Shown: piece after piece, positions 2,407 through 48,899 of the stretch | How the letters are laid out: each line of letters begins with the position of its first letter | Numbering within the stretch: the first letter of the stretch is position 1 | Source of the DNA: a virus | DNA: 64,000 nucleotides | Strand: one strand, 5' to 3' | Virus record (IMG/VR): IMGVR_UViG_3300049046_000039 | Location: 51,802-115,801 of that record | Notes under the pieces: generated by a model | Told to the model about the DNA's origin: nothing | What the model saw: the letters and a program-made list of their open reading frames with translations, nothing else | The model's database searches: none | Program-made: the position numbers and the translations under genes

Positions 2407-2436
2407 TAGTATATACTCTTTTCTTGGAAATGTCAA
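2407..2436 (-). promoter_or_regulatory. sigma70-like early promoter; similar copies near 6.2, 9.1, 10.6, 12.55, 34.2, 37.0, 45.5, 47.2, 48.1, 50.1, 50.2, 52.2, 52.4 and 56.2 kb
   Basis: TTGACA-N17-TATACT; recurring TTGACATT...TATAAT/TATATT motif on minus strand. Confidence 0.75.
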
Positions 2437-3590
2437 ACAATAATGTGAGGAACGAATTTTGCAGTATTGCTAGTAATGAGGCCGTCCTCACGAATGCCCA
2501 TACCTACTGCAGCACCGTCGACCGACCAGACGCCGAGTACGGGATACTTACCACTGAACTCAGGAAGAGAGTAGCGCTCTTGATAGACGTAGCCGTCAGA
2601 ACCGTACTCGCCACCGGTCGCGCTAAGAGTCTTACCGAACTGGTCCTTGACAAGGATGTTCGAACCTTCGCGAGCCAGAATAGGCTTCGAGACGTATCCG
2701 CTGGAGAAGTCACGATTGTTGACCGGAACTTCGAAGCTTGCGGCAAGGAGGTTCTTATGATTTGGGAACATCTTCCACAGAATCGGAAGAATCGCCTTGT
2801 TAGACCAGATCATCTTCCAGACAGGTTCGATCCACGTGGTGATGTCGGCTGAAGCGAGAATGTTGTTAGCGAACTTCTCGTTGACCATCCACTCCCAAGG
2901 ATAGAGATGCTGAATCGTCGACATATGGTAATTGTCGAGATCAACGAAAGCTTCGCCATCCCAACCGATGTCGTTGATCAGAATACCGTGACTGATGATG
3001 CCGGCTTCTTCTGCCATATCTCGCATGTAGGAGACATTGACGGCATCTTCACCGGCACCATCGTCGGCGTGAGTAAACCAGACGTGCTTCTCAGGAAGCA
3101 GAGGAGCGATGTACTTCCAGCGCTCGACGATAGCTTCGTGAATGCCATTGAACTGATCCACGCCCTCGCCGAACATGTCGTTCTTCCAGTGCCATTGGAC
3201 TACCGAAGCTTCGAGAAGACTGGTCGGAGTGTCGCAGTTGAACTCGAACATCTTGGGGTCGGTGCGACCGTCATAACCAAAGTCGAAGCGACCGTAGTTA
3301 AGAGCCGGTGGCTCGCTATCCCAAGTGTCGATAATGTACTGGTGGAAGTGAGGAGGAATCCCAAACTGGTTGAGGATGTGGTAGTTAGAGACGATATAGT
3401 CTCCAGCTACAATCATCATCTTGTAGCAGTTGTTAGCCGCTTCCTCAATTCTCTCGATGTCTGAAGACGAGAATGCGTAGTATGCGTCCTCGTTCCAGTA
3501 AGGTTCGGCCGAAGCACTGTGCCAGAGAAGACCCTGACCCTCGACGATCGCCTTCCAATTGTGGCGAGGAGTTGAAGAGTGACGCAGCAT
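2433..3590 (-). CDS. glutathionylspermidine synthase-like ATP-grasp protein (YgiC family)
   Basis: YGRFDF, EFNCDTPTSLLEAS, YPWEW, EPxWK, SNKAILP, KPILAREG motifs. Confidence 0.93.
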   Translation of the reverse strand: MLRHSSTPRHNWKAIVEGQGLLWHSASAEPYWNEDAYYAFSSSDIERIEEAANNCYKMMIVAGDYIVSNYHILNQFGIPPHFHQYIIDTWDSEPPALNYGRFDFGYDGRTDPKMFEFNCDTPTSLLEASVVQWHWKNDMFGEGVDQFNGIHEAIVERWKYIAPLLPEKHVWFTHADDGAGEDAVNVSYMRDMAEEAGIISHGILINDIGWDGEAFVDLDNYHMSTIQHLYPWEWMVNEKFANNILASADITTWIEPVWKMIWSNKAILPILWKMFPNHKNLLAASFEVPVNNRDFSSGYVSKPILAREGSNILVKDQFGKTLSATGGEYGSDGYVYQERYSLPEFSGKYPVLGVWSVDGAAVGMGIREDGLITSNTAKFVPHIIV

Positions 3591-4022: not shown

Positions 4023-4706
4023 TTAGTACTGGTCGAACTTAAGCAAATTATATCCTCTTAGCAAGCCGCGCTTATGTTCTTCCAGAGGATATACTCCAAT
4101 CGAAGTCTTTTGATTTCCGATGTCCGGTTCTCTAAACACTACGTATGGAACTTTCATGCTCCCCAGAACTTTCTCTACTTCTTCGAGCTCGTACGCGTTA
4201 CGTACTCCGCAGCAAGTAAAGTGTAAGCCCTTAACGAGTTCTGGAGACTTTTGAGCGATGAGTGCGCCAAGTTCGAGAGCAGCGTGAGACGTCTGAACCA
4301 GCTGATACTCGTCGAAGATGTCTTGACGAGTGAAGAAGTAGGAGTACCTCCTGATCAGGAGCGCTCTATTTACGCTTAATCTAAGCGCGTGAAGCTCGGC
4401 GTGCTCTTCTTCGGTCAGAACTTCAGCAGCGTTTTGACCTAGAACAAAGTTCTTCAGACCAATGAGCATGCCGTTGTAGTTGTTGGTGATTGCGTCGAAT
4501 GGAACTCTACCGTTCGCCAGCTTGGACACCTTACTGACCGGAGGAAATGCTCGACGGAGAAGGTGAATGGCGATGTCTCTCTTATCGTCGAGAGATTCTG
4601 CACGGGAGTTGATAGCCTTTAGAAGACAGTAGTCGATCATGTCTCGCGTAGTGTTCTTCTTTTGAGAGGCGAGAGTCTTCCAGGCGGTTTTGTAATCAAA
4701 GTTCAT
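4023..4706 (-). CDS. protein with C-terminal peptidyl-tRNA hydrolase 2 (Pth2)-like domain
   Basis: QLVQTSHAALE ... VVFREPDIGNQKTSIGVYP; start moved to ATG 4706 behind AAGGA and a TTTACA-N17-TATATT promoter. Confidence 0.7.
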   Translation of the reverse strand: MNFDYKTAWKTLASQKKNTTRDMIDYCLLKAINSRAESLDDKRDIAIHLLRRAFPPVSKVSKLANGRVPFDAITNNYNGMLIGLKNFVLGQNAAEVLTEEEHAELHALRLSVNRALLIRRYSYFFTRQDIFDEYQLVQTSHAALELGALIAQKSPELVKGLHFTCCGVRNAYELEEVEKVLGSMKVPYVVFREPDIGNQKTSIGVYPLEEHKRGLLRGYNLLKFDQY

Positions 4707-4777
4707 TATTGAATTCCTTAATCTTGAGTAATATAACACGTAATAAAACAAATGTAAATAACATTTTTACGGTAAGA

Positions 4778-4807
4778 TTAAGGCGGGCCGGTTGAGTTCT
4801 AACGCAT
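4778..4807 (-). CDS. amber-containing mini-ORF M-R-(TAG)-N-S-T-G-P-P
   Basis: ATG CGT TAG AAC TCA ACC GGC CCG CCT TAA; AGGAG SD; ATG overlaps upstream TAA. Confidence 0.6.
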
Positions 4808-5058
4808 TACTCTTCTCCTGATATTGTTGCGACACCGTCAACAATTTCTACCGAGCACTTCTTGAGCTTGATAGAGCCTTTGGTGTGTGAGTTGTCTGGA
4901 GTTTCTTTTGTAGAGAAGCCGATGTTACAGTCGACATGGTCTACGTAAAACGTCTGCCCTTTTAGTTTAAGAACCCACATGGGAATCTTAGGATCGGCTA
5001 GGTGACCCTTATTGAAGTGAAATACTACTTCTTTACAGTTCTAAAAAGTCTGCTTCAT
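4807..5058 (-). CDS. 83-aa phage protein with in-frame TAG at codon 6 (MKQTF*NCKEVVFHFNKGHL...KETPDNSHTKGSIK...)
   Basis: AAGGA SD; single TAG at 5041-5043, then 77 open codons to TAA; absent from ORF track. Confidence 0.75.
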
Positions 5059-5062
5059 TTTG

Positions 5063-5527
5063 TTATTCCTTAAATTCGCTAGTAACATTTACCAACTCTG
5101 TTGGCAGATAGAATACTTCAAAATCTTCAACTACTCTCCAGTATTCGCCGTCAGCCCACGATCCTACTAGTTCTGTTACAGCATCGCGAAGAATGTCTTC
5201 TACGTACTTAGAGTCTTCCTCAGAAAGAATGTGATAGTCGAATTCTTTTGGAACTGACACGTTATTCTGGTTATATGAGTCTACAATCTTCTTAAGATCT
5301 GGAACAAGCTCCGAGTCATTTTCACGACCCTCGTAGTCGCTATGTCTATCGACATTTCCATACTTACCACCATCGTAAGTCGACCTAAACATAAGAGCGA
5401 CGTCGACGTAGAACTTAACATGGTCTACTTCCAGACCAGTGAATTCTTTAGTCATGTAGTTGTCGGCGTCATTTTCCCAAGTGGTCAGCTTAAGAATGTA
5501 TCCAGGCTTAATGTTTGTCATAATCAC
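5063..5527 (-). CDS. hypothetical protein
   Basis: 154-aa ORF with SD, in operon. Confidence 0.75.
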   Translation of the reverse strand: MIMTNIKPGYILKLTTWENDADNYMTKEFTGLEVDHVKFYVDVALMFRSTYDGGKYGNVDRHSDYEGRENDSELVPDLKKIVDSYNQNNVSVPKEFDYHILSEEDSKYVEDILRDAVTELVGSWADGEYWRVVEDFEVFYLPTELVNVTSEFKE

Positions 5528-5535
5528 CTTAGTAA

Positions 5536-5612
5536 TGGTGCGCGTGACGGGACTCGAACCCGTGACGTCATGATTTTAGAGATCACCGCTCTTCCAACTG
5601 AGCTACACGCAC
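5536..5612 (-). tRNA. amber suppressor tRNA(CUA)
   Basis: GTGCGTG TA GCTC AGTTGGAA GAGC G GTGAT CTCTAAA ATCAT GACGTC ACGGG TTCGAGT CCCGT CACGCGC A CCA. Confidence 0.92.
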
Positions 5613-7144: not shown

Positions 7145-7309
7145 TTAACCCTCCAAAACTCGTGTTAGCACTATAAGTGCAGCGTTGAACTGCTTTCCCT
7201 TATTGTGTCGAATATCGTGAGCGAACCAAGGTTTGCCCTCGGCGTCGTATTGATCAGCCAGGAGGTTTCGTGCCTCCTGGCTGATCAGAGATGACTTACC
7301 TGAAGTCAT
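7145..7309 (-). CDS. 54-aa hypothetical protein
   Basis: ATG overlaps the end of the DUF2828 gene; contains a 15-bp hairpin at 7251-7287. Confidence 0.4.
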   Translation of the reverse strand: MTSGKSSLISQEARNLLADQYDAEGKPWFAHDIRHNKGKQFNAALIVLTRVLEG

Positions 7310-8747
7310 ACTTAGACTGCATGACAGTCTTACGCATGATACCTTCGGGAGTCATGTCGTCGTAGTTAGCGCCGAGAACGGCCTTCATGATCGCTGGCGA
7401 GAAGCCAGAGACGAGGGCAGTTCCAGTCTCGTCGAATGAAACCGGCACGTTACCGTGAGAGTTGAGGTTCCAGAAGACTACTGCCGGAGCTTCGTAACCA
7501 GCACGACGGTACTCGTTACGGATCATCTCGATTGCTCGAGGGTCGTGAGCTTTCGCGCTAGAGCTCCAGCCGCCGCCACCAGTGCCTACGCACTGGTTGA
7601 ACTGCATGTCAGACATGATTAGGAGCATCGTTGGCATTTCTGCCGCAGGCACCTTACCCTTGACTGCAGTATCGAGGATGCGATGGAGCGCCTTCTCGAG
7701 GTCGGTAGACATGTTCCAAGACGATCTCGCCATGGCGTTGTATCGCTGAGACAGCGTACCCTTGACGGTCACGAACTCAGGCTCACTGGAGAAGGTAAGG
7801 AACATGTCCTTGAACTTACCAGTGTTCTTGCTCGCGCAATAGAGACCTAGAGAGATCGCTACGTCGAGACAGGTGACATCCACGCCCTTCGTACCACCGC
7901 CGGCGCGGCAGCCCATAGAACCTGAAACGTCTACCAGAGGCAGAACGTTAGCGTCGCCGATAAAGTTAGGTAGAGCGTCCCACTGAGCGTTAGCCACGGT
8001 AGAGTCACCGTATCTCACGGTCTTGATGATGTCGTAAGGGTATACGGCACCAGCGTTGACCTTGACACCCTTGTCGCCACGCTTGAGAGCTTCCTTGTAT
8101 GCAGTGAACTGCGTAGGAGCCTTCTTAGCGAAAGCCTTGGTGTAGCGAGACATAGCCAGAGAAGGAACGTGGTTGAAGTTGATAGCTTCAAACTCACGGT
8201 TACACATCTGAGTCTCGACAACTCTCGTGAGGTTCACGAGCAGCTTGCGGTACTGCTTTGGAGACATTGCCATGAAGTTGCGCAGCTCTACAGCCTTAGC
8301 GCCCTTACGTGGCATCCACTTAGCGGCCAGACCATTACCGTTCTGGAGGTTCTCCTGAATGAGAGAGAACGCTACAGACTTCACTTCCTCGGTGTTGAAC
8401 ACGAGAAGGTCGTCGAAGCGGCCCAGATCAGGAACACGCGACAGAAGGTTAGTCTTGGTGAGGTAGTCAGGGTTGACTTTCTCGAGATGGAGAAGGATGT
8501 CGCGGAAGAGCTTACGCTCACCGGCGCCGCCGCGGATGTCGCGAGCCCAGAGGGCGATACGGATAGCCAGTTCGCTGTCTTCTACCAGCGCCTTGTTGAA
8601 GAGGCCGGTAACGTCCTTGCCACGCATAGCGCCGATCTGACCAAAGAGGTCTACGTTGGCGCGCATGGTTGACTTGTATGCAGCCATGCCATTCGTGGTC
8701 TTGGTTTTTACAGGAGTGTTGTTTACTGCATTCGCAAAAGTATTCAT
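7296..8747 (-). CDS. DUF2828-type Ro60/TROVE-like vWA protein
   Basis: TTNG, RDIRGGAGER, GRFDDL, LAAKWMPR, HVPSLAM, MIDAS DVSGSM, SDMQF, FWNL, LVSGFSP. Confidence 0.85.
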   Translation of the reverse strand: MNTFANAVNNTPVKTKTTNGMAAYKSTMRANVDLFGQIGAMRGKDVTGLFNKALVEDSELAIRIALWARDIRGGAGERKLFRDILLHLEKVNPDYLTKTNLLSRVPDLGRFDDLLVFNTEEVKSVAFSLIQENLQNGNGLAAKWMPRKGAKAVELRNFMAMSPKQYRKLLVNLTRVVETQMCNREFEAINFNHVPSLAMSRYTKAFAKKAPTQFTAYKEALKRGDKGVKVNAGAVYPYDIIKTVRYGDSTVANAQWDALPNFIGDANVLPLVDVSGSMGCRAGGGTKGVDVTCLDVAISLGLYCASKNTGKFKDMFLTFSSEPEFVTVKGTLSQRYNAMARSSWNMSTDLEKALHRILDTAVKGKVPAAEMPTMLLIMSDMQFNQCVGTGGGGWSSSAKAHDPRAIEMIRNEYRRAGYEAPAVVFWNLNSHGNVPVSFDETGTALVSGFSPAIMKAVLGANYDDMTPEGIMRKTVMQSKYDFR

Positions 8748-25135: not shown

Positions 25136-25744
25136 TTAGATATACGAGTAAGTATGTCTCTTTTCTGATTCGTTAAGTATCTGCTTGCTTACGATATACC
25201 TATTCGTTATCTTAATCTTGTTGGCGTCGTATGCGAGATACACGTTATGACGAGTAGCCATTCCCATGTTTCTACCGCCGTCGTATCTGAGTCCGTCGAA
25301 GCCGAGCGACATGAGCTTCTTGCGAGCTATAGCGGTGTTCTTCATGCCGTTCGACAAACCACGAAACACCTGATCGCCAGTAAGTCTCATAGAGCCGCTA
25401 GTGAGCTGAGACTTAACCTTTATAGCGTCGGCGCCAAGATTTAGAAGGTTAGCACCTCTAGCAAACTGATCGGGCTTGTCGGAAACTAATCTCTGAAGTA
25501 TCTCACCCGTGTAGATGTTATTGACGTCGAAGAGTCTGTTAAAAGACAGTCTAGTCTCGTAGACGTACATACCGTCGCCACCGTAGCGATTGTACATAGT
25601 TCTAGCATAGCTCTTTGCTACTTCGATATTGTCGGTAAAGTAGGCTACGCCGCCGCCGTAGAAGTCATTCACGATTCTAGACATGTTCTGCTCGAACACG
25701 TTGAATCGCGTTCTAGTGCCGTGGTAGCCTATTACGACTGTCAT
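25136..25744 (-). CDS. ADP-ribosyltransferase-like (ART-PolyVal type) protein
   Basis: YHGT...F...G.AYFTDN...A..YA...VYE...GFDG. Confidence 0.6.
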   Translation of the reverse strand: MTVVIGYHGTRTRFNVFEQNMSRIVNDFYGGGVAYFTDNIEVAKSYARTMYNRYGGDGMYVYETRLSFNRLFDVNNIYTGEILQRLVSDKPDQFARGANLLNLGADAIKVKSQLTSGSMRLTGDQVFRGLSNGMKNTAIARKKLMSLGFDGLRYDGGRNMGMATRHNVYLAYDANKIKITNRYIVSKQILNESEKRHTYSYI

Positions 25745-30099: not shown

Positions 30100-30813
30100 C
30101 TATAAAAATGGATTACGCTTCTTAGTATTTGGCAAAACTGAAAATGCGCTATTGGCTACTGACGTAAGCTTTAGTTCGGCTTGAACTTCGTAGAATCTAC
30201 TTCTGTTCGACACACGAACTCGAAACTTACCTGTGCCAGTAAGCTGAGGAATCTCGCTAGACAGTCCCAGTGGATTGGTGTTCGATATCATGAAGAAGTC
30301 GTCGCCTGCCTGCATGTAGTAAGCTGGCTCGGTCTTACCTTGAGTGTAGTGCATCGTGACCAGATCGCTTAGATCGTAGTCCTTGTGATCTAGAATGTAC
30401 GCTCCGTTCTCTCGACAGAACTTGCGCATGACGTCGCGTGGAACGGCATTATCCGTGTCCATCTCACCGCGATTTGTTGGTATGTATATCGTCTCGAAGG
30501 CTAGACCGCAATAGTCTGAGATTGAGTAAACAAACTCTAGAGAAACTTGCGACTTATTTAATTCTTGGACAATGTTACCCGCAATAGGAGTGCTATACCT
30601 TGTTTTCCATGCTTTCTCGTGAAAGTAAACCCTTGGATTAGCAAGGTTATCTGAATGGTTCATCTTCACTTCTAGCCAACTAGACCTGTTATTAAAATTG
30701 ACTAGCACGTCAGAATAGTCAGTTCCGACCTTAGGTCTTACTGCACTAACGTGGTGCATCGAGTCTAGATGCTCGGCGATAATGCGTTCGTGTTTATCTG
30801 AAGCTTTGCTCAT
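30100..30813 (-). CDS. PD-(D/E)XK-like nuclease
   Basis: E...YSDV...WLEVK. Confidence 0.55.
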   Translation of the reverse strand: MSKASDKHERIIAEHLDSMHHVSAVRPKVGTDYSDVLVNFNNRSSWLEVKMNHSDNLANPRVYFHEKAWKTRYSTPIAGNIVQELNKSQVSLEFVYSISDYCGLAFETIYIPTNRGEMDTDNAVPRDVMRKFCRENGAYILDHKDYDLSDLVTMHYTQGKTEPAYYMQAGDDFFMISNTNPLGLSSEIPQLTGTGKFRVRVSNRSRFYEVQAELKLTSVANSAFSVLPNTKKRNPFL

Positions 30814-48821: not shown

Positions 48822-48899
48822 TGGTCTAGGTAGAGGGATTCGAACCCCCGGCCCCCTGCTCCCAAAGCAGGTGCTCTGACCCGACTGAGCTACACCTAG
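48822..48899 (-). tRNA. tRNA-Pro(UGG)
   Basis: loop TTTGGGA, C1-G72, ACCA. Confidence 0.93.

What the first reader, a model, noticed from the sequence alone, without database searches (positions are those of the whole stretch)
4778..4807. Mini-ORF M-R-amber-N-S-T-G-P-P-stop
Has an AGGAG SD and a TAATG overlap. Without suppression it is a two-codon minigene, a known source of peptidyl-tRNA drop-off. With suppression it ends in Pro-Pro-stop, an established stalling and poor-termination context. Either outcome could generate a Pth substrate.
Basis: partly seen in the sequence, partly recalled or inferred. Interest (0 to 1): 0.8.

Follow-up and report, generated by a model that had tools for sequence, protein, structure and literature searches.

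The report
Amber-gated leader of phage Pth2 gene
A ten-codon leader gene interrupted by a UAG stop sits in front of a phage peptidyl-tRNA-hydrolase-like gene and most likely lets that gene be translated only when the phage's own UAG-reading tRNA overrides the stop; all 21 related phage loci that carry the same N-terminal domain keep the design, and I found no paper describing it.

Summary
All 21 related loci whose Pth2-like gene has the same N-terminal domain, fused or as a separate gene, carry a Shine-Dalgarno-led short ORF or gene tail just upstream. In each case it holds an in-frame TAG, then a few codons, then Pro-Pro. The peptide sequences are otherwise unrelated.

Codons after the TAG change almost only at third positions, so they are translated. 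The second Pro codon, the stop and the bases after them pair with the ribosome-binding site of the Pth2-like gene. This hairpin is kept in all 21 loci with different stem sequences. A tRNA(CUA) gene lies upstream in most of the loci with enough flank. One locus has tRNA(UUA) instead, and there the gating stop is TAA.

Best reading: a translational switch that senses stop-codon readthrough. Suppression carries the ribosome onto the Pro-Pro-stop, the hairpin opens, and the Pth2-like gene is translated. This mechanism is inferred, not shown.

This scan has already reported the same design in at least 37 other genomes. I found no publication.

The parts
5536..5612 (-). tRNA with anticodon CUA (amber suppressor); the presumed trans-acting input of the switch
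   Evidence: ARAGORN; Rfam tRNA model, 59.2 bits, E=5e-12. Its closest paralogue in the phage is tRNA-Arg(UCU) at 79% identity; the amino acid it inserts was not determined.
4807..5058 (-). 83-codon gene with an in-frame TAG at codon 6. Its TAA stop overlaps the leader's ATG (TAATG).
   Evidence: All 48 distinct IMG/VR homologues carry TAG (never TAA or TGA) at codon 2-7, and most have a tRNA(CUA) within 3 kb. The same holds in Rhizobium phage RHph_I1_18.
4815..4819 (-). Shine-Dalgarno AGGAG of the leader, 7 nt before its ATG
   Evidence: Read from the sequence. A purine-rich Shine-Dalgarno sequence precedes most of the related leaders; it is weak or absent in a few, such as L138, L189 and L205.
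4778..4807 (-). Leader mini-ORF M-R-UAG-N-S-T-G-P-P-UAA (the finding)
   Evidence: Homologous leaders occur in 21 of 21 N-domain loci. The post-amber codons evolve as coding sequence.
4799..4801 (-). Gating amber codon (codon 3 of the leader), 15 nt upstream of the start of the stem
   Evidence: TAG is the gating stop in every locus that has tRNA(CUA); it is TAA in the one locus with tRNA(UUA).
4774..4783 (-). 5' arm of the hairpin (anti-SD): second Pro codon CCT, the TAA stop, then TCTT
   Evidence: Perfectly complementary to 4716-4725. It is part of the minimum-free-energy fold of the segment from the Pro-Pro codons to the ATG, z=-3.43.
4730..4758 (-). Sigma-70-like hexamers TTTACA-17-TATATT inside the hairpin loop (status uncertain)
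   Evidence: 1 site found in 1.9 kb against 2.3 expected in shuffles, so there is no enrichment. Similar hexamers occur in L086, L087, L088 and L089. They are absent from L137 and from all short-loop relatives.
4716..4725 (-). 3' arm of the hairpin, AAGATTAAGG, which contains most of the Shine-Dalgarno AAGGA (4719-4715) of the Pth2-like gene
4023..4706 (-). Regulated gene: 227-aa protein with an N-terminal helical domain of unknown fold (1-116) and a C-terminal PTH2-fold domain (117-222)
   Evidence: AlphaFold2 model, pLDDT 84.8. The top Foldseek hits are all PTH2 proteins, TM 0.67-0.74. VIA-align gives 1wn2_A Z=13.5, rmsd 2.4 A over 106 residues, and nothing above Z=5.6 for the N-domain. Sequence-level support is weak: Pfam PF01981 E=0.087, below its cut-off; PDB profile hit E=0.029.

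Best explanation
The mini-ORF is a translated leader peptide that acts as a sensor of UAG readthrough and gates translation of the downstream two-domain Pth2-like gene.

In the resting mRNA, the leader's last Pro codon, its stop codon and the next few bases pair with the Shine-Dalgarno region of the Pth2-like gene and hide it. A ribosome that starts on the leader normally meets UAG at codon 3 and is released 15 nt before the stem, so the hairpin stays closed.

If the phage's tRNA(CUA) decodes the UAG, the ribosome moves on to Gly-Pro-Pro-UAA, a slow peptide-bond and termination context. There it sits on the 5' arm, the Shine-Dalgarno sequence is freed, and the Pth2-like gene is translated. The enzyme is therefore made in proportion to suppressor activity.

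Shown here: the ORF, its conservation, coding-type evolution after the amber, the conserved hairpin, the linkage to tRNA(CUA), and the PTH2 fold.

Inferred: that the tRNA reads this UAG, that the ribosome pauses at Pro-Pro-stop, and that this opens the hairpin (the direction of control).
For: 1. Conservation. All 21 assessable loci whose Pth2-like gene has the N-domain (fused or as the preceding gene) carry the element upstream: a start codon (preceded by a Shine-Dalgarno sequence in most), 1-9 codons, TAG (two TAGs in L141, L142 and the distant L179), 2-8 codons, then Pro-Pro. Examples are MN*QLAQPP*, MR*FKPP*, MLR*NSTGPP*, MT*LSTGPP*, MTRIRDIPR*SIRAPP* and MRNKQL*QVRGPP*. The viral loci that have only the C-domain gene (L090-L110) show no such ORF.

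2. Translation past the amber. Within three groups of close relatives, 14 of 18 variable sites after the TAG fall at third codon positions (P=1.4e-4). Window, L089 and L137 keep S-T-G-P-P while every third base is free to vary.

3. Hairpin. In 21 of 21 loci the minimum-free-energy fold of the segment from the Pro-Pro codons to the ATG pairs CCNCC(U) with the AAGG/AGGAG of the next gene. z is -3.3 to -8.7 in 19 of them (window -3.43), and the inner stem sequences differ from locus to locus. Only 9% of the 174 upstream regions in this genome reach z below -3.3.

4. Direction of control. In L112, L118 and L125 there is no stop after Pro-Pro, and the readthrough frame runs across the hairpin to a TGA that overlaps or lies next to the start codon of the next gene, which is classic translational coupling. 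In a more distant clade the Pth2-like gene itself carries the stop at codon 3-9. In both cases readthrough is needed for expression.

5. Input. A tRNA(CUA) lies 10-2100 nt upstream in the window and in L004/L005, L006/L089, L086, L093, L111, L112, L114-L116, L118, L121-L124, L137, L138 and L143. About 40 of the 79 metagenome loci also have one. L163 has tRNA(UUA) instead; there the gating stops are TAA and the leader's terminal stop is TAG.

6. The genome uses the standard code. TAG ends 25 of 187 predicted ORFs, and the only in-frame TAGs found are the two next to the tRNA.

7. R-A-P-P and R-G-P-P, which are present in several of the related leaders, are published EF-P-refractory arrest motifs (PMC12992588, PMC10951233).
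Against: No experiment supports any step.

The window's motif is T-G-P-P, not the published RAPP/RGPP, so whether it stalls a ribosome is a guess.

CCNCC is itself the anti-Shine-Dalgarno sequence, so the Pro-Pro codons may be conserved for RNA pairing rather than for the peptide.

When the 123-nt window segment that includes the leader's 5' part is folded, the minimum-free-energy structure is a different one.

The hairpin is weak in the window's closest relative L089 (z=-0.8) and in L138 (z=-1.7).

The window's loop contains a sigma-70-like TTTACA-17-TATATT. If that promoter is real, its transcripts would lack the 5' arm and would escape the switch.

The 21 loci are homologous, not independent.

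The amino acid carried by the tRNA, and whether a host synthetase charges it, are unknown.
Confidence: 0.68

Rival explanations
1. One reading: the element exists to produce peptidyl-tRNA. That would be fMet-Arg-tRNA drop-off from a two-codon minigene, or stalled Pro-Pro-stop complexes. It would act as a substrate or decoy for the Pth2-like enzyme, like the lambda bar minigenes, and not as a cis regulator.
For: In the window, and in L087 and L088, the pre-amber part is exactly two codons behind a good Shine-Dalgarno sequence. The neighbouring gene has a PTH2 fold. Very short nascent chains ending in Pro-Pro are plausible drop-off substrates (established knowledge, not tested here).
Against: The two-codon state is not conserved. 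Pre-amber length is 1-9 codons, and in L142 and L143 the leader is the tail of a normal gene. This reading does not explain the conserved pairing with the downstream Shine-Dalgarno sequence, the coupled ORFs without a stop after Pro-Pro, or the Pth2-like genes gated directly by an N-terminal stop.
Confidence: 0.1
2. The conserved element is only the RNA hairpin, serving as an RNase III or RNase E processing site, a stability element, or constitutive damping of translation. The ORF features around it would be incidental.
For: The hairpin is the most strongly conserved structural feature. The locus lies in a tRNA-rich region where RNA processing is expected.
Against: An incidental ORF would not keep a start codon, a single type of in-frame stop and an in-frame CCN-CCN across 21 loci whose peptide sequences are otherwise unrelated. 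It would not show third-position-biased substitution after the amber. It would not switch its gating stop to TAA where the tRNA is UUA.
Confidence: 0.07
3. The leader is a switch, but with another input or the opposite sign. It might report RF1 or EF-P activity rather than the phage tRNA. Or readthrough might lower expression, for example through tmRNA or mRNA decay triggered by the stalled ribosome.
For: UAG readthrough depends on the balance between RF1 and the suppressor. Pro-Pro pauses depend on EF-P (established knowledge). Phage tmRNA genes lie next to the module in many relatives.
Against: The coupled-ORF variants and the directly gated Pth2-like genes only make sense if readthrough turns expression on. 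A stalled ribosome on the 5' arm sits 35-60 nt from the Shine-Dalgarno sequence, too far to block it sterically. The match between gating stop and tRNA anticodon points to the tRNA as the input.
Confidence: 0.12
4. A chance short ORF in an intergenic spacer.
For: A looser version of the pattern is expected 0.25 times per genome, and a second, clearly meaningless copy exists.
Against: The same design occurs at the same place relative to the same gene in 21 of 21 related loci, at 31-69% protein identity.
Confidence: 0.01

Closest known systems
RAPP/RGPP-type regulatory arrest peptides (ApdA, ApdP, ApcA; SecM with RAGP; Streptomyces RAPP/RGPP uORFs) - PMC10951233, PMC12992588, PMC7897499
   Same: A short upstream ORF ends in X-X-Pro-Pro. 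It lies before a gene whose ribosome-binding site is held in a hairpin that a paused ribosome would open. Several relatives carry exactly RAPP (L111, L142) or RGPP (L121, L124, L141, L143, L189, L205).
   Different: The arrest motif can only be reached after an in-frame stop codon has been read through, so the input is suppressor-tRNA activity and not protein export. The leaders are far shorter (8-17 codons). The window's motif is TGPP. The regulated gene is a PTH2-fold protein. The host is a phage.
erm/cat-type leader-peptide translational attenuation
   Same: A leader ORF with its own Shine-Dalgarno sequence, a hairpin that hides the downstream Shine-Dalgarno sequence, and a ribosome held in the leader that releases it.
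   Different: The signal is decoding of a stop codon, not an antibiotic bound to the ribosome.
prfB (RF2) autoregulation through an in-frame UGA
   Same: An in-frame stop early in the message turns the efficiency of termination at one stop codon into a level of gene expression.
   Different: prfB uses a +1 frameshift within its own coding sequence and senses a release factor. Here there is a separate leader, no frameshift, and a suppressor tRNA as the activator.
bldA tRNA-Leu(UUA) control of TTA-containing genes in Streptomyces (from memory)
   Same: One dedicated tRNA acts as a trans-acting translational activator of a few genes that contain its codon.
   Different: bldA reads a rare sense codon inside coding sequences. 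Here a stop codon is read, in a leader and at gene N-termini.
Stop-codon-recoded phages and their 'code change modules' (10.1101/2021.08.26.457843; PMC9523058)
   Same: A phage-encoded suppressor tRNA makes expression of stop-containing genes conditional.
   Different: Those phages carry in-frame stops throughout their late genes. This genome uses the standard code and has only two gated ORFs, both beside the tRNA. That preprint does not mention peptidyl-tRNA hydrolase or tmRNA.
Lambda bar minigenes (from memory)
   Same: In the unsuppressed state the window's leader is a two-codon ORF behind a Shine-Dalgarno sequence, next to a Pth-type function.
   Different: The two-codon state is not conserved among relatives. 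There is no evidence of toxicity or of action in trans.

Membership tests
RAPP/RGPP-type arrest peptides | C-terminal Arg-Ala/Gly-Pro-Pro core | tested here: not met
   The window's leader ends Thr-Gly-Pro-Pro. RAPP or RGPP is present in relatives L111, L142, L121, L124, L141, L143, L189 and L205. Others end KPP, QPP, IGPP, SPP or DPP.
RAPP/RGPP-type arrest peptides | Ribosome arrest at the Pro-Pro position, refractory to EF-P | not testable with these tools
   This needs toeprinting or in vitro translation.
Leader-peptide translational attenuation (erm/cat type) | Short leader ORF with its own Shine-Dalgarno sequence immediately upstream of the regulated gene | tested here: met
   AGGAG lies 7 nt before the ATG, and the ORF ends 71 nt before the Pth2-like ATG.
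Leader-peptide translational attenuation (erm/cat type) | Hairpin that sequesters the downstream Shine-Dalgarno sequence, with its 5' arm inside or next to the leader | tested here: met
   Bases 4783-4774 pair with 4725-4716 (z=-3.43). The same topology is seen in 21 of 21 loci with differing stem sequences. The genome background is 9% at z below -3.3. Caveat: a longer window segment gives a different minimum-free-energy fold.
Leader-peptide translational attenuation (erm/cat type) | Stalled ribosome opens the hairpin and induces translation | not testable with these tools
   Inferred from the geometry and from the coupled-ORF variants.
Lambda bar-type minigene | Two-codon ORF as the conserved functional unit | tested here: not met
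   The pre-amber part is 1-9 codons in relatives, or the tail of a full-length gene.
Genome-wide TAG reassignment (code 15-type phage) | In-frame TAG in many genes; coding density rises when TAG is read as sense | tested here: not met
   Coding density is 0.876 under the standard code and 0.897 with TAG open, similar to the gain from opening TGA. 25 of 187 ORFs end in TAG. The one candidate long readthrough turned out to be two genes.
PTH2 peptidyl-tRNA hydrolase (Pfam PF01981), for the regulated gene | PTH2 fold | tested here: met
   The top ten Foldseek hits are all PTH2 chains, probability 1.0, TM 0.67-0.74. VIA-align gives Z=13.5 to 1wn2_A.
PTH2 peptidyl-tRNA hydrolase (Pfam PF01981), for the regulated gene | Score above Pfam's gathering threshold | tested here: not met
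   13.5 bits against a 23-bit cut-off. The best E-value among 29 family members is 0.017.
PTH2 peptidyl-tRNA hydrolase (Pfam PF01981), for the regulated gene | Catalytic residues and hydrolase activity | not tested
   The family has its own invariant polar residues (R127, Q128, D129, Q138, H141, E193, D195, T201). I did not map them onto the known PTH2 active site.

The most novel reading that the evidence does not exclude
In phages that use the standard genetic code, the long-unexplained suppressor tRNA is a dedicated trans-acting translational activator of a small local regulon. It gates a PTH2-fold protein, either through a stop-containing, Pro-Pro-ending leader with a hairpin that hides the Shine-Dalgarno sequence, or through a stop at the gene's own N-terminus. 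It also gates a widespread small protein whose gene always carries TAG at codon 2-7. The leader would be a natural ribosome-based sensor of stop-codon readthrough, in which the gating stop co-varies with the tRNA anticodon.
Probability: 0.6. Interest if true: 0.85.

Novelty: new variant of a known kind. Interest (0 to 1): 0.8.

Why it matters
Many large phages that use the standard code encode amber suppressor tRNAs, and nobody has found what those tRNAs read. The XacN1 authors say so explicitly (PMC5852040).

This element offers a concrete, testable set of targets. It also offers a mechanism: a leader peptide that turns "is UAG being read through?" into translation of a peptidyl-tRNA-hydrolase-like enzyme. 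In relatives the module sits beside phage tmRNA genes, which suggests the phage pairs suppression with ribosome-rescue or clean-up functions.

It would add a new input, stop-codon readthrough, to the known class of leader and arrest-peptide switches. It would also be a compact natural part for genetic-code-expansion circuits.

Tried and rejected
- **tRNA remnant.** By eye the start of the leader resembles the 5' end of the tRNA(CUA). Rfam at E up to 10 finds no tRNA-like match at 4740-4840, and the conserved ORF explains the sequence better.
- **Intrinsic terminator or stable local structure in the spacer.** None was found. The 101-nt fold has z=+1.44, and no minus-strand terminator was detected.
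- **Repeated genomic motif.** The leader pattern is unique in the window. Near-matches to the 3' motif are just reverse complements of ordinary ribosome-binding sites.
- **Promoter in the loop.** The hexamers are no more frequent than in shuffles, and they are not conserved in L137 or in the short-loop relatives.
- **Other amber-interrupted genes in the genome.** The 376-codon "readthrough" after 30100 is two separate genes; DUF6267 starts after the junction. The second match to the loose pattern, at about 25520-25586 on the + strand, is chance.
- **First metagenome scan** with the three-sequence alignment confirmed nothing. A 60-sequence alignment then worked.
- **The N-domain alignment A4** was too diverse to scan with. 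The A5 scan returned only contigs already in hand.
- **RNAalifold on a MAFFT alignment of 13 hairpins** predicted no pairs, because the stems are out of register. I relied on per-sequence folds against shuffles instead.
- **N-domain fold.** No convincing structural match, Z no higher than 5.6.
- **N-domain in cultured phages.** No tblastn match. No close cultured relative of the genome was found, so the host is unknown.
- **Identity of the suppressor tRNA.** Its nearest paralogue is tRNA-Arg(UCU), which does not settle what it carries.

Full report
**What is there.** The genes around the finding are on the minus strand. In 5'-to-3' order they are:
- a tRNA with anticodon CUA (5612..5536; ARAGORN; Rfam 59.2 bits);
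- a 154-aa ORF (5527..5063, phrog_2290);
- an 83-codon gene with an in-frame TAG at codon 6 (5058..4807);
- the mini-ORF ATG CGT TAG AAC TCA ACC GGC CCG CCT TAA (4807..4778), whose ATG overlaps the preceding TAA and which has AGGAG 7 nt upstream;
- a 71-nt spacer;
- a 227-aa gene (4706..4023).

The contig is 115.8 kb, the window holds 34 tRNA genes, and the genome uses the standard code. Opening TAG raises coding density no more than opening TGA does, and 25 of 187 ORFs end in TAG. The only other candidate in-frame TAG, at 30100, is an ordinary stop between two genes.

**Is it more than chance?** A single copy would not be. A loose version of the pattern is expected 0.25 times per genome, and a second, meaningless copy exists. 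The argument rests on comparison with relatives.

Relatives of the 227-aa protein were collected from IMG/VR and from metagenomes. Every locus in which the protein's N-terminal domain is present, either fused or as the immediately preceding and often overlapping gene, has the same arrangement just upstream. That arrangement is a short ORF with a start codon (preceded by a Shine-Dalgarno sequence in most), 1-9 sense codons, TAG, 2-8 sense codons, then Pro-Pro. This holds for 21 of 21 assessable loci.

Three of these need a caveat. L136 and L146 are cut at the contig end but still show the 3' part. L141 has two TAGs.

The peptides are otherwise unrelated (MN*QLAQPP, MR*FKPP, MTRIRDIPR*SIRAPP, MMNDKVTTV*IDLKPP, MRNKQL*QVRGPP and others). 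What is conserved is the design, not a sequence. The viral loci that have only the single-domain gene (L090-L110) lack it. More distant loci (L179, L189, L204, L205, L213) have the same leader in front of a different partner gene of about 100-150 aa, followed by the Pth2-like gene.

**Is the part after the amber translated?** I compared three groups of close relatives: window/L089/L137; L112/L118/L122/L125/L114; and L087/L088/L136. In these, 14 of 18 variable sites in the post-amber codons are at third positions (binomial P=1.4e-4). The window, L089 and L137 all encode S-T-G-P-P with different third bases in every codon. That is the signature of selection on an encoded peptide, so the UAG must be decoded at a level that matters.

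**The hairpin.**
- **In the window.** Bases 4783-4774 (the second Pro codon, the TAA stop, then TCTT) are perfectly complementary to 4725-4716, which contain most of the Shine-Dalgarno AAGGA of the 227-aa gene.
- **Across the loci.** Folding the segment from the Pro-Pro codons to the start codon gives, in all 21 loci, a minimum-free-energy hairpin that pairs CCNCC(U) with the AAGG/AGGAG of the next gene. z is -3.3 to -8.7 in 19 of them (window -3.43; L089 -0.8; L138 -1.7). The inner stems differ in sequence from locus to locus, so pairing is kept through compensatory change.
- **Background.** In this genome only 9% of 174 upstream regions reach z below -3.3.
- **What the hairpin is not.** No U-tract follows the stem, so it is not an intrinsic terminator.
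- **Geometry.** The UAG lies 9-27 nt before the stem (15 nt in the window). A ribosome terminating at UAG should therefore leave the stem intact, whereas one with Pro-Pro in its E and P sites and the stop in its A site would cover the 5' arm. This step rests on general knowledge of ribosome footprints, not on a measurement.

**Direction of control.** Two natural variants suggest that readthrough turns the downstream gene on.
- In L112, L118 and L125 there is no stop after Pro-Pro. The readthrough frame crosses the hairpin and the Shine-Dalgarno sequence and ends at a TGA that overlaps or lies next to the next gene's ATG, which is termination-reinitiation coupling.
- In a more distant clade the Pth2-like gene itself carries the stop at codon 3-9.

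**The input.** A tRNA(CUA) lies upstream of the leader, at distances from about 10 nt to 2.1 kb, in the window and in nearly all N-domain loci with enough flank. About 40 of the 79 metagenome loci that hold any relative of the Pth2-like gene have one within 2.5 kb.

L163 has tRNA(UUA) instead. There the Pth2-like gene has TAA at codon 4 with no alternative start, and a downstream leader reads M-T-TAA-I-F-K-P-P-TAG followed by a hairpin. L217 has tRNA(UCA) and a TGA, but an ATG follows that TGA directly, so the case is ambiguous.

The neighbouring 83-codon gene gives independent support for amber gating. All 48 distinct homologues carry TAG, never another stop, at codon 2-7, mostly next to a tRNA(CUA). 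This includes the cultured Rhizobium phage RHph_I1_18, where the gene is unannotated.

**The regulated gene.** Sequence searches barely see PTH2 (Pfam E=0.087, below the cut-off; PDB profile E=0.029). The AlphaFold2 model (pLDDT 84.8) does match PTH2 structures over residues 117-222: Foldseek probability 1.0 and TM 0.67-0.74, and VIA-align Z=13.5 with rmsd 2.4 A over 106 residues to 1wn2_A. The helical N-domain has no convincing match. All 62 fused homologues in the large protein collection are unnamed. Catalytic competence was not assessed.

**Weak points.**
- Nothing here is experimental.
- CCNCC is itself the anti-Shine-Dalgarno sequence, so Pro-Pro may be conserved for pairing rather than for stalling. 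The window has TGPP, not the published RAPP/RGPP (PMC12992588, PMC10951233).
- A longer window segment folds differently.
- The loop contains sigma-70-like hexamers that could give a transcript lacking the 5' arm. However, they are not enriched over shuffles and are absent from L137 and from all short-loop relatives.
- The amino acid inserted at UAG is unknown.

**Comparison with what is known, and novelty.** The parts are familiar: leader-peptide attenuation of the erm/cat type, and Pro-Pro arrest peptides. The closest conceptual parallels are the in-frame UGA of prfB and bldA-type control by a tRNA. New here is that a stop codon, read by a phage-encoded suppressor tRNA, gates access to the stalling and hairpin-opening part of the leader, in a phage that otherwise uses the standard code.

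Full-text searches turned up no description of this. The XacN1 paper states that targets of its amber suppressor tRNAs could not be identified. The main stop-codon-recoding preprint does not mention peptidyl-tRNA hydrolases or tmRNA. PTH2-like genes inside mycobacteriophage tRNA arrays have been noted without any regulatory reading.

Within this scan the same design has already been reported, and followed up with the same conclusion, in at least 37 other genomes. First-stage notes on this genome had also seen the complementarity to the Shine-Dalgarno sequence.

**Verdict.** I rate it a new variant of a known kind of switch, and of high interest.

Noticed in passing
window 4807-5058 (-); L001:2481-2727; L006-L085: The 83-codon gene upstream of the leader belongs to a widespread phage family (...VVFHFNK...MWV.K.KGQTFYV...TKETPDN...). 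All 48 distinct homologues fetched carry TAG, never TAA or TGA, at codon 2-7. The next base is A in 44 of 48, and a tRNA(CUA) usually lies within 3 kb. The family has no Pfam or PHROG match and is unannotated in Rhizobium phage RHph_I1_18. In phages Phosso and Atu_ph07 the domain is the C-terminus of a protein of about 175 aa, two genes downstream of an annotated peptidyl-tRNA hydrolase.
   Followed up: partly
L090, L093, L112-L115, L117, L118, L126, L139-L141, L147, L179: Phage-encoded tmRNA genes lie within 1-2 kb of the Pth2-like gene and the suppressor tRNA in many relatives. This suggests a translation-rescue island made of tmRNA, tRNA(CUA) and a PTH2-fold protein.
   Followed up: no
L163:2115-2640: An ochre version of the system. 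tRNA(UUA) is followed by a Pth2-like gene with TAA at codon 4, then a leader M-T-TAA-I-F-K-P-P-TAG with a hairpin before the next gene. L217 has tRNA(UCA) with a TGA just before the Pth2-like coding sequence, but an ATG follows directly, so that case is ambiguous.
   Followed up: partly
L204:1647-1982; also L156-L158, L170, L172, L174, L190, L191: In several distant metagenome loci the Pth2-like reading frame is interrupted. L204 has a TAG inside the domain. In the others the called ORFs start well after the tblastn match begins. These contigs may carry further in-frame stops or use a recoded TAG.
   Followed up: no
L117:2380-2520: Upstream of a single-domain Pth2-like gene nearly identical to that of L115 there seems to be only the 5' part of a tRNA, joined to the last codons of an N-domain gene. 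It looks like a deletion derivative of the full module.
   Followed up: no
L179:2114-2230; L141:2383-2500; L142:60-165: Some leaders contain two in-frame TAGs before the R-G/A-P-P motif (double gating). In L142 and L143 the leader is the readthrough extension of a full-length upstream gene that ends in TAG.
   Followed up: partly
window 7296-8747 (-) and 2433-3590 (-): A DUF2828/DUF7788 protein (PHROG 'RNA-binding protein', Ro60/TROVE-like; found in more than 700 cultured phages) and a glutathionylspermidine synthase flank the module. Other first-stage notes describe tRNA-mimic RNA cassettes next to the first of these.
   Followed up: no
L004, L005, L006, L086: One or two tRNA-Pro(UGG) genes lie directly upstream of the tRNA(CUA) in several relatives whose leader ends in Pro-Pro. 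In the window the tRNA-Pro(UGG) is far away, at 48822-48899.
   Followed up: no
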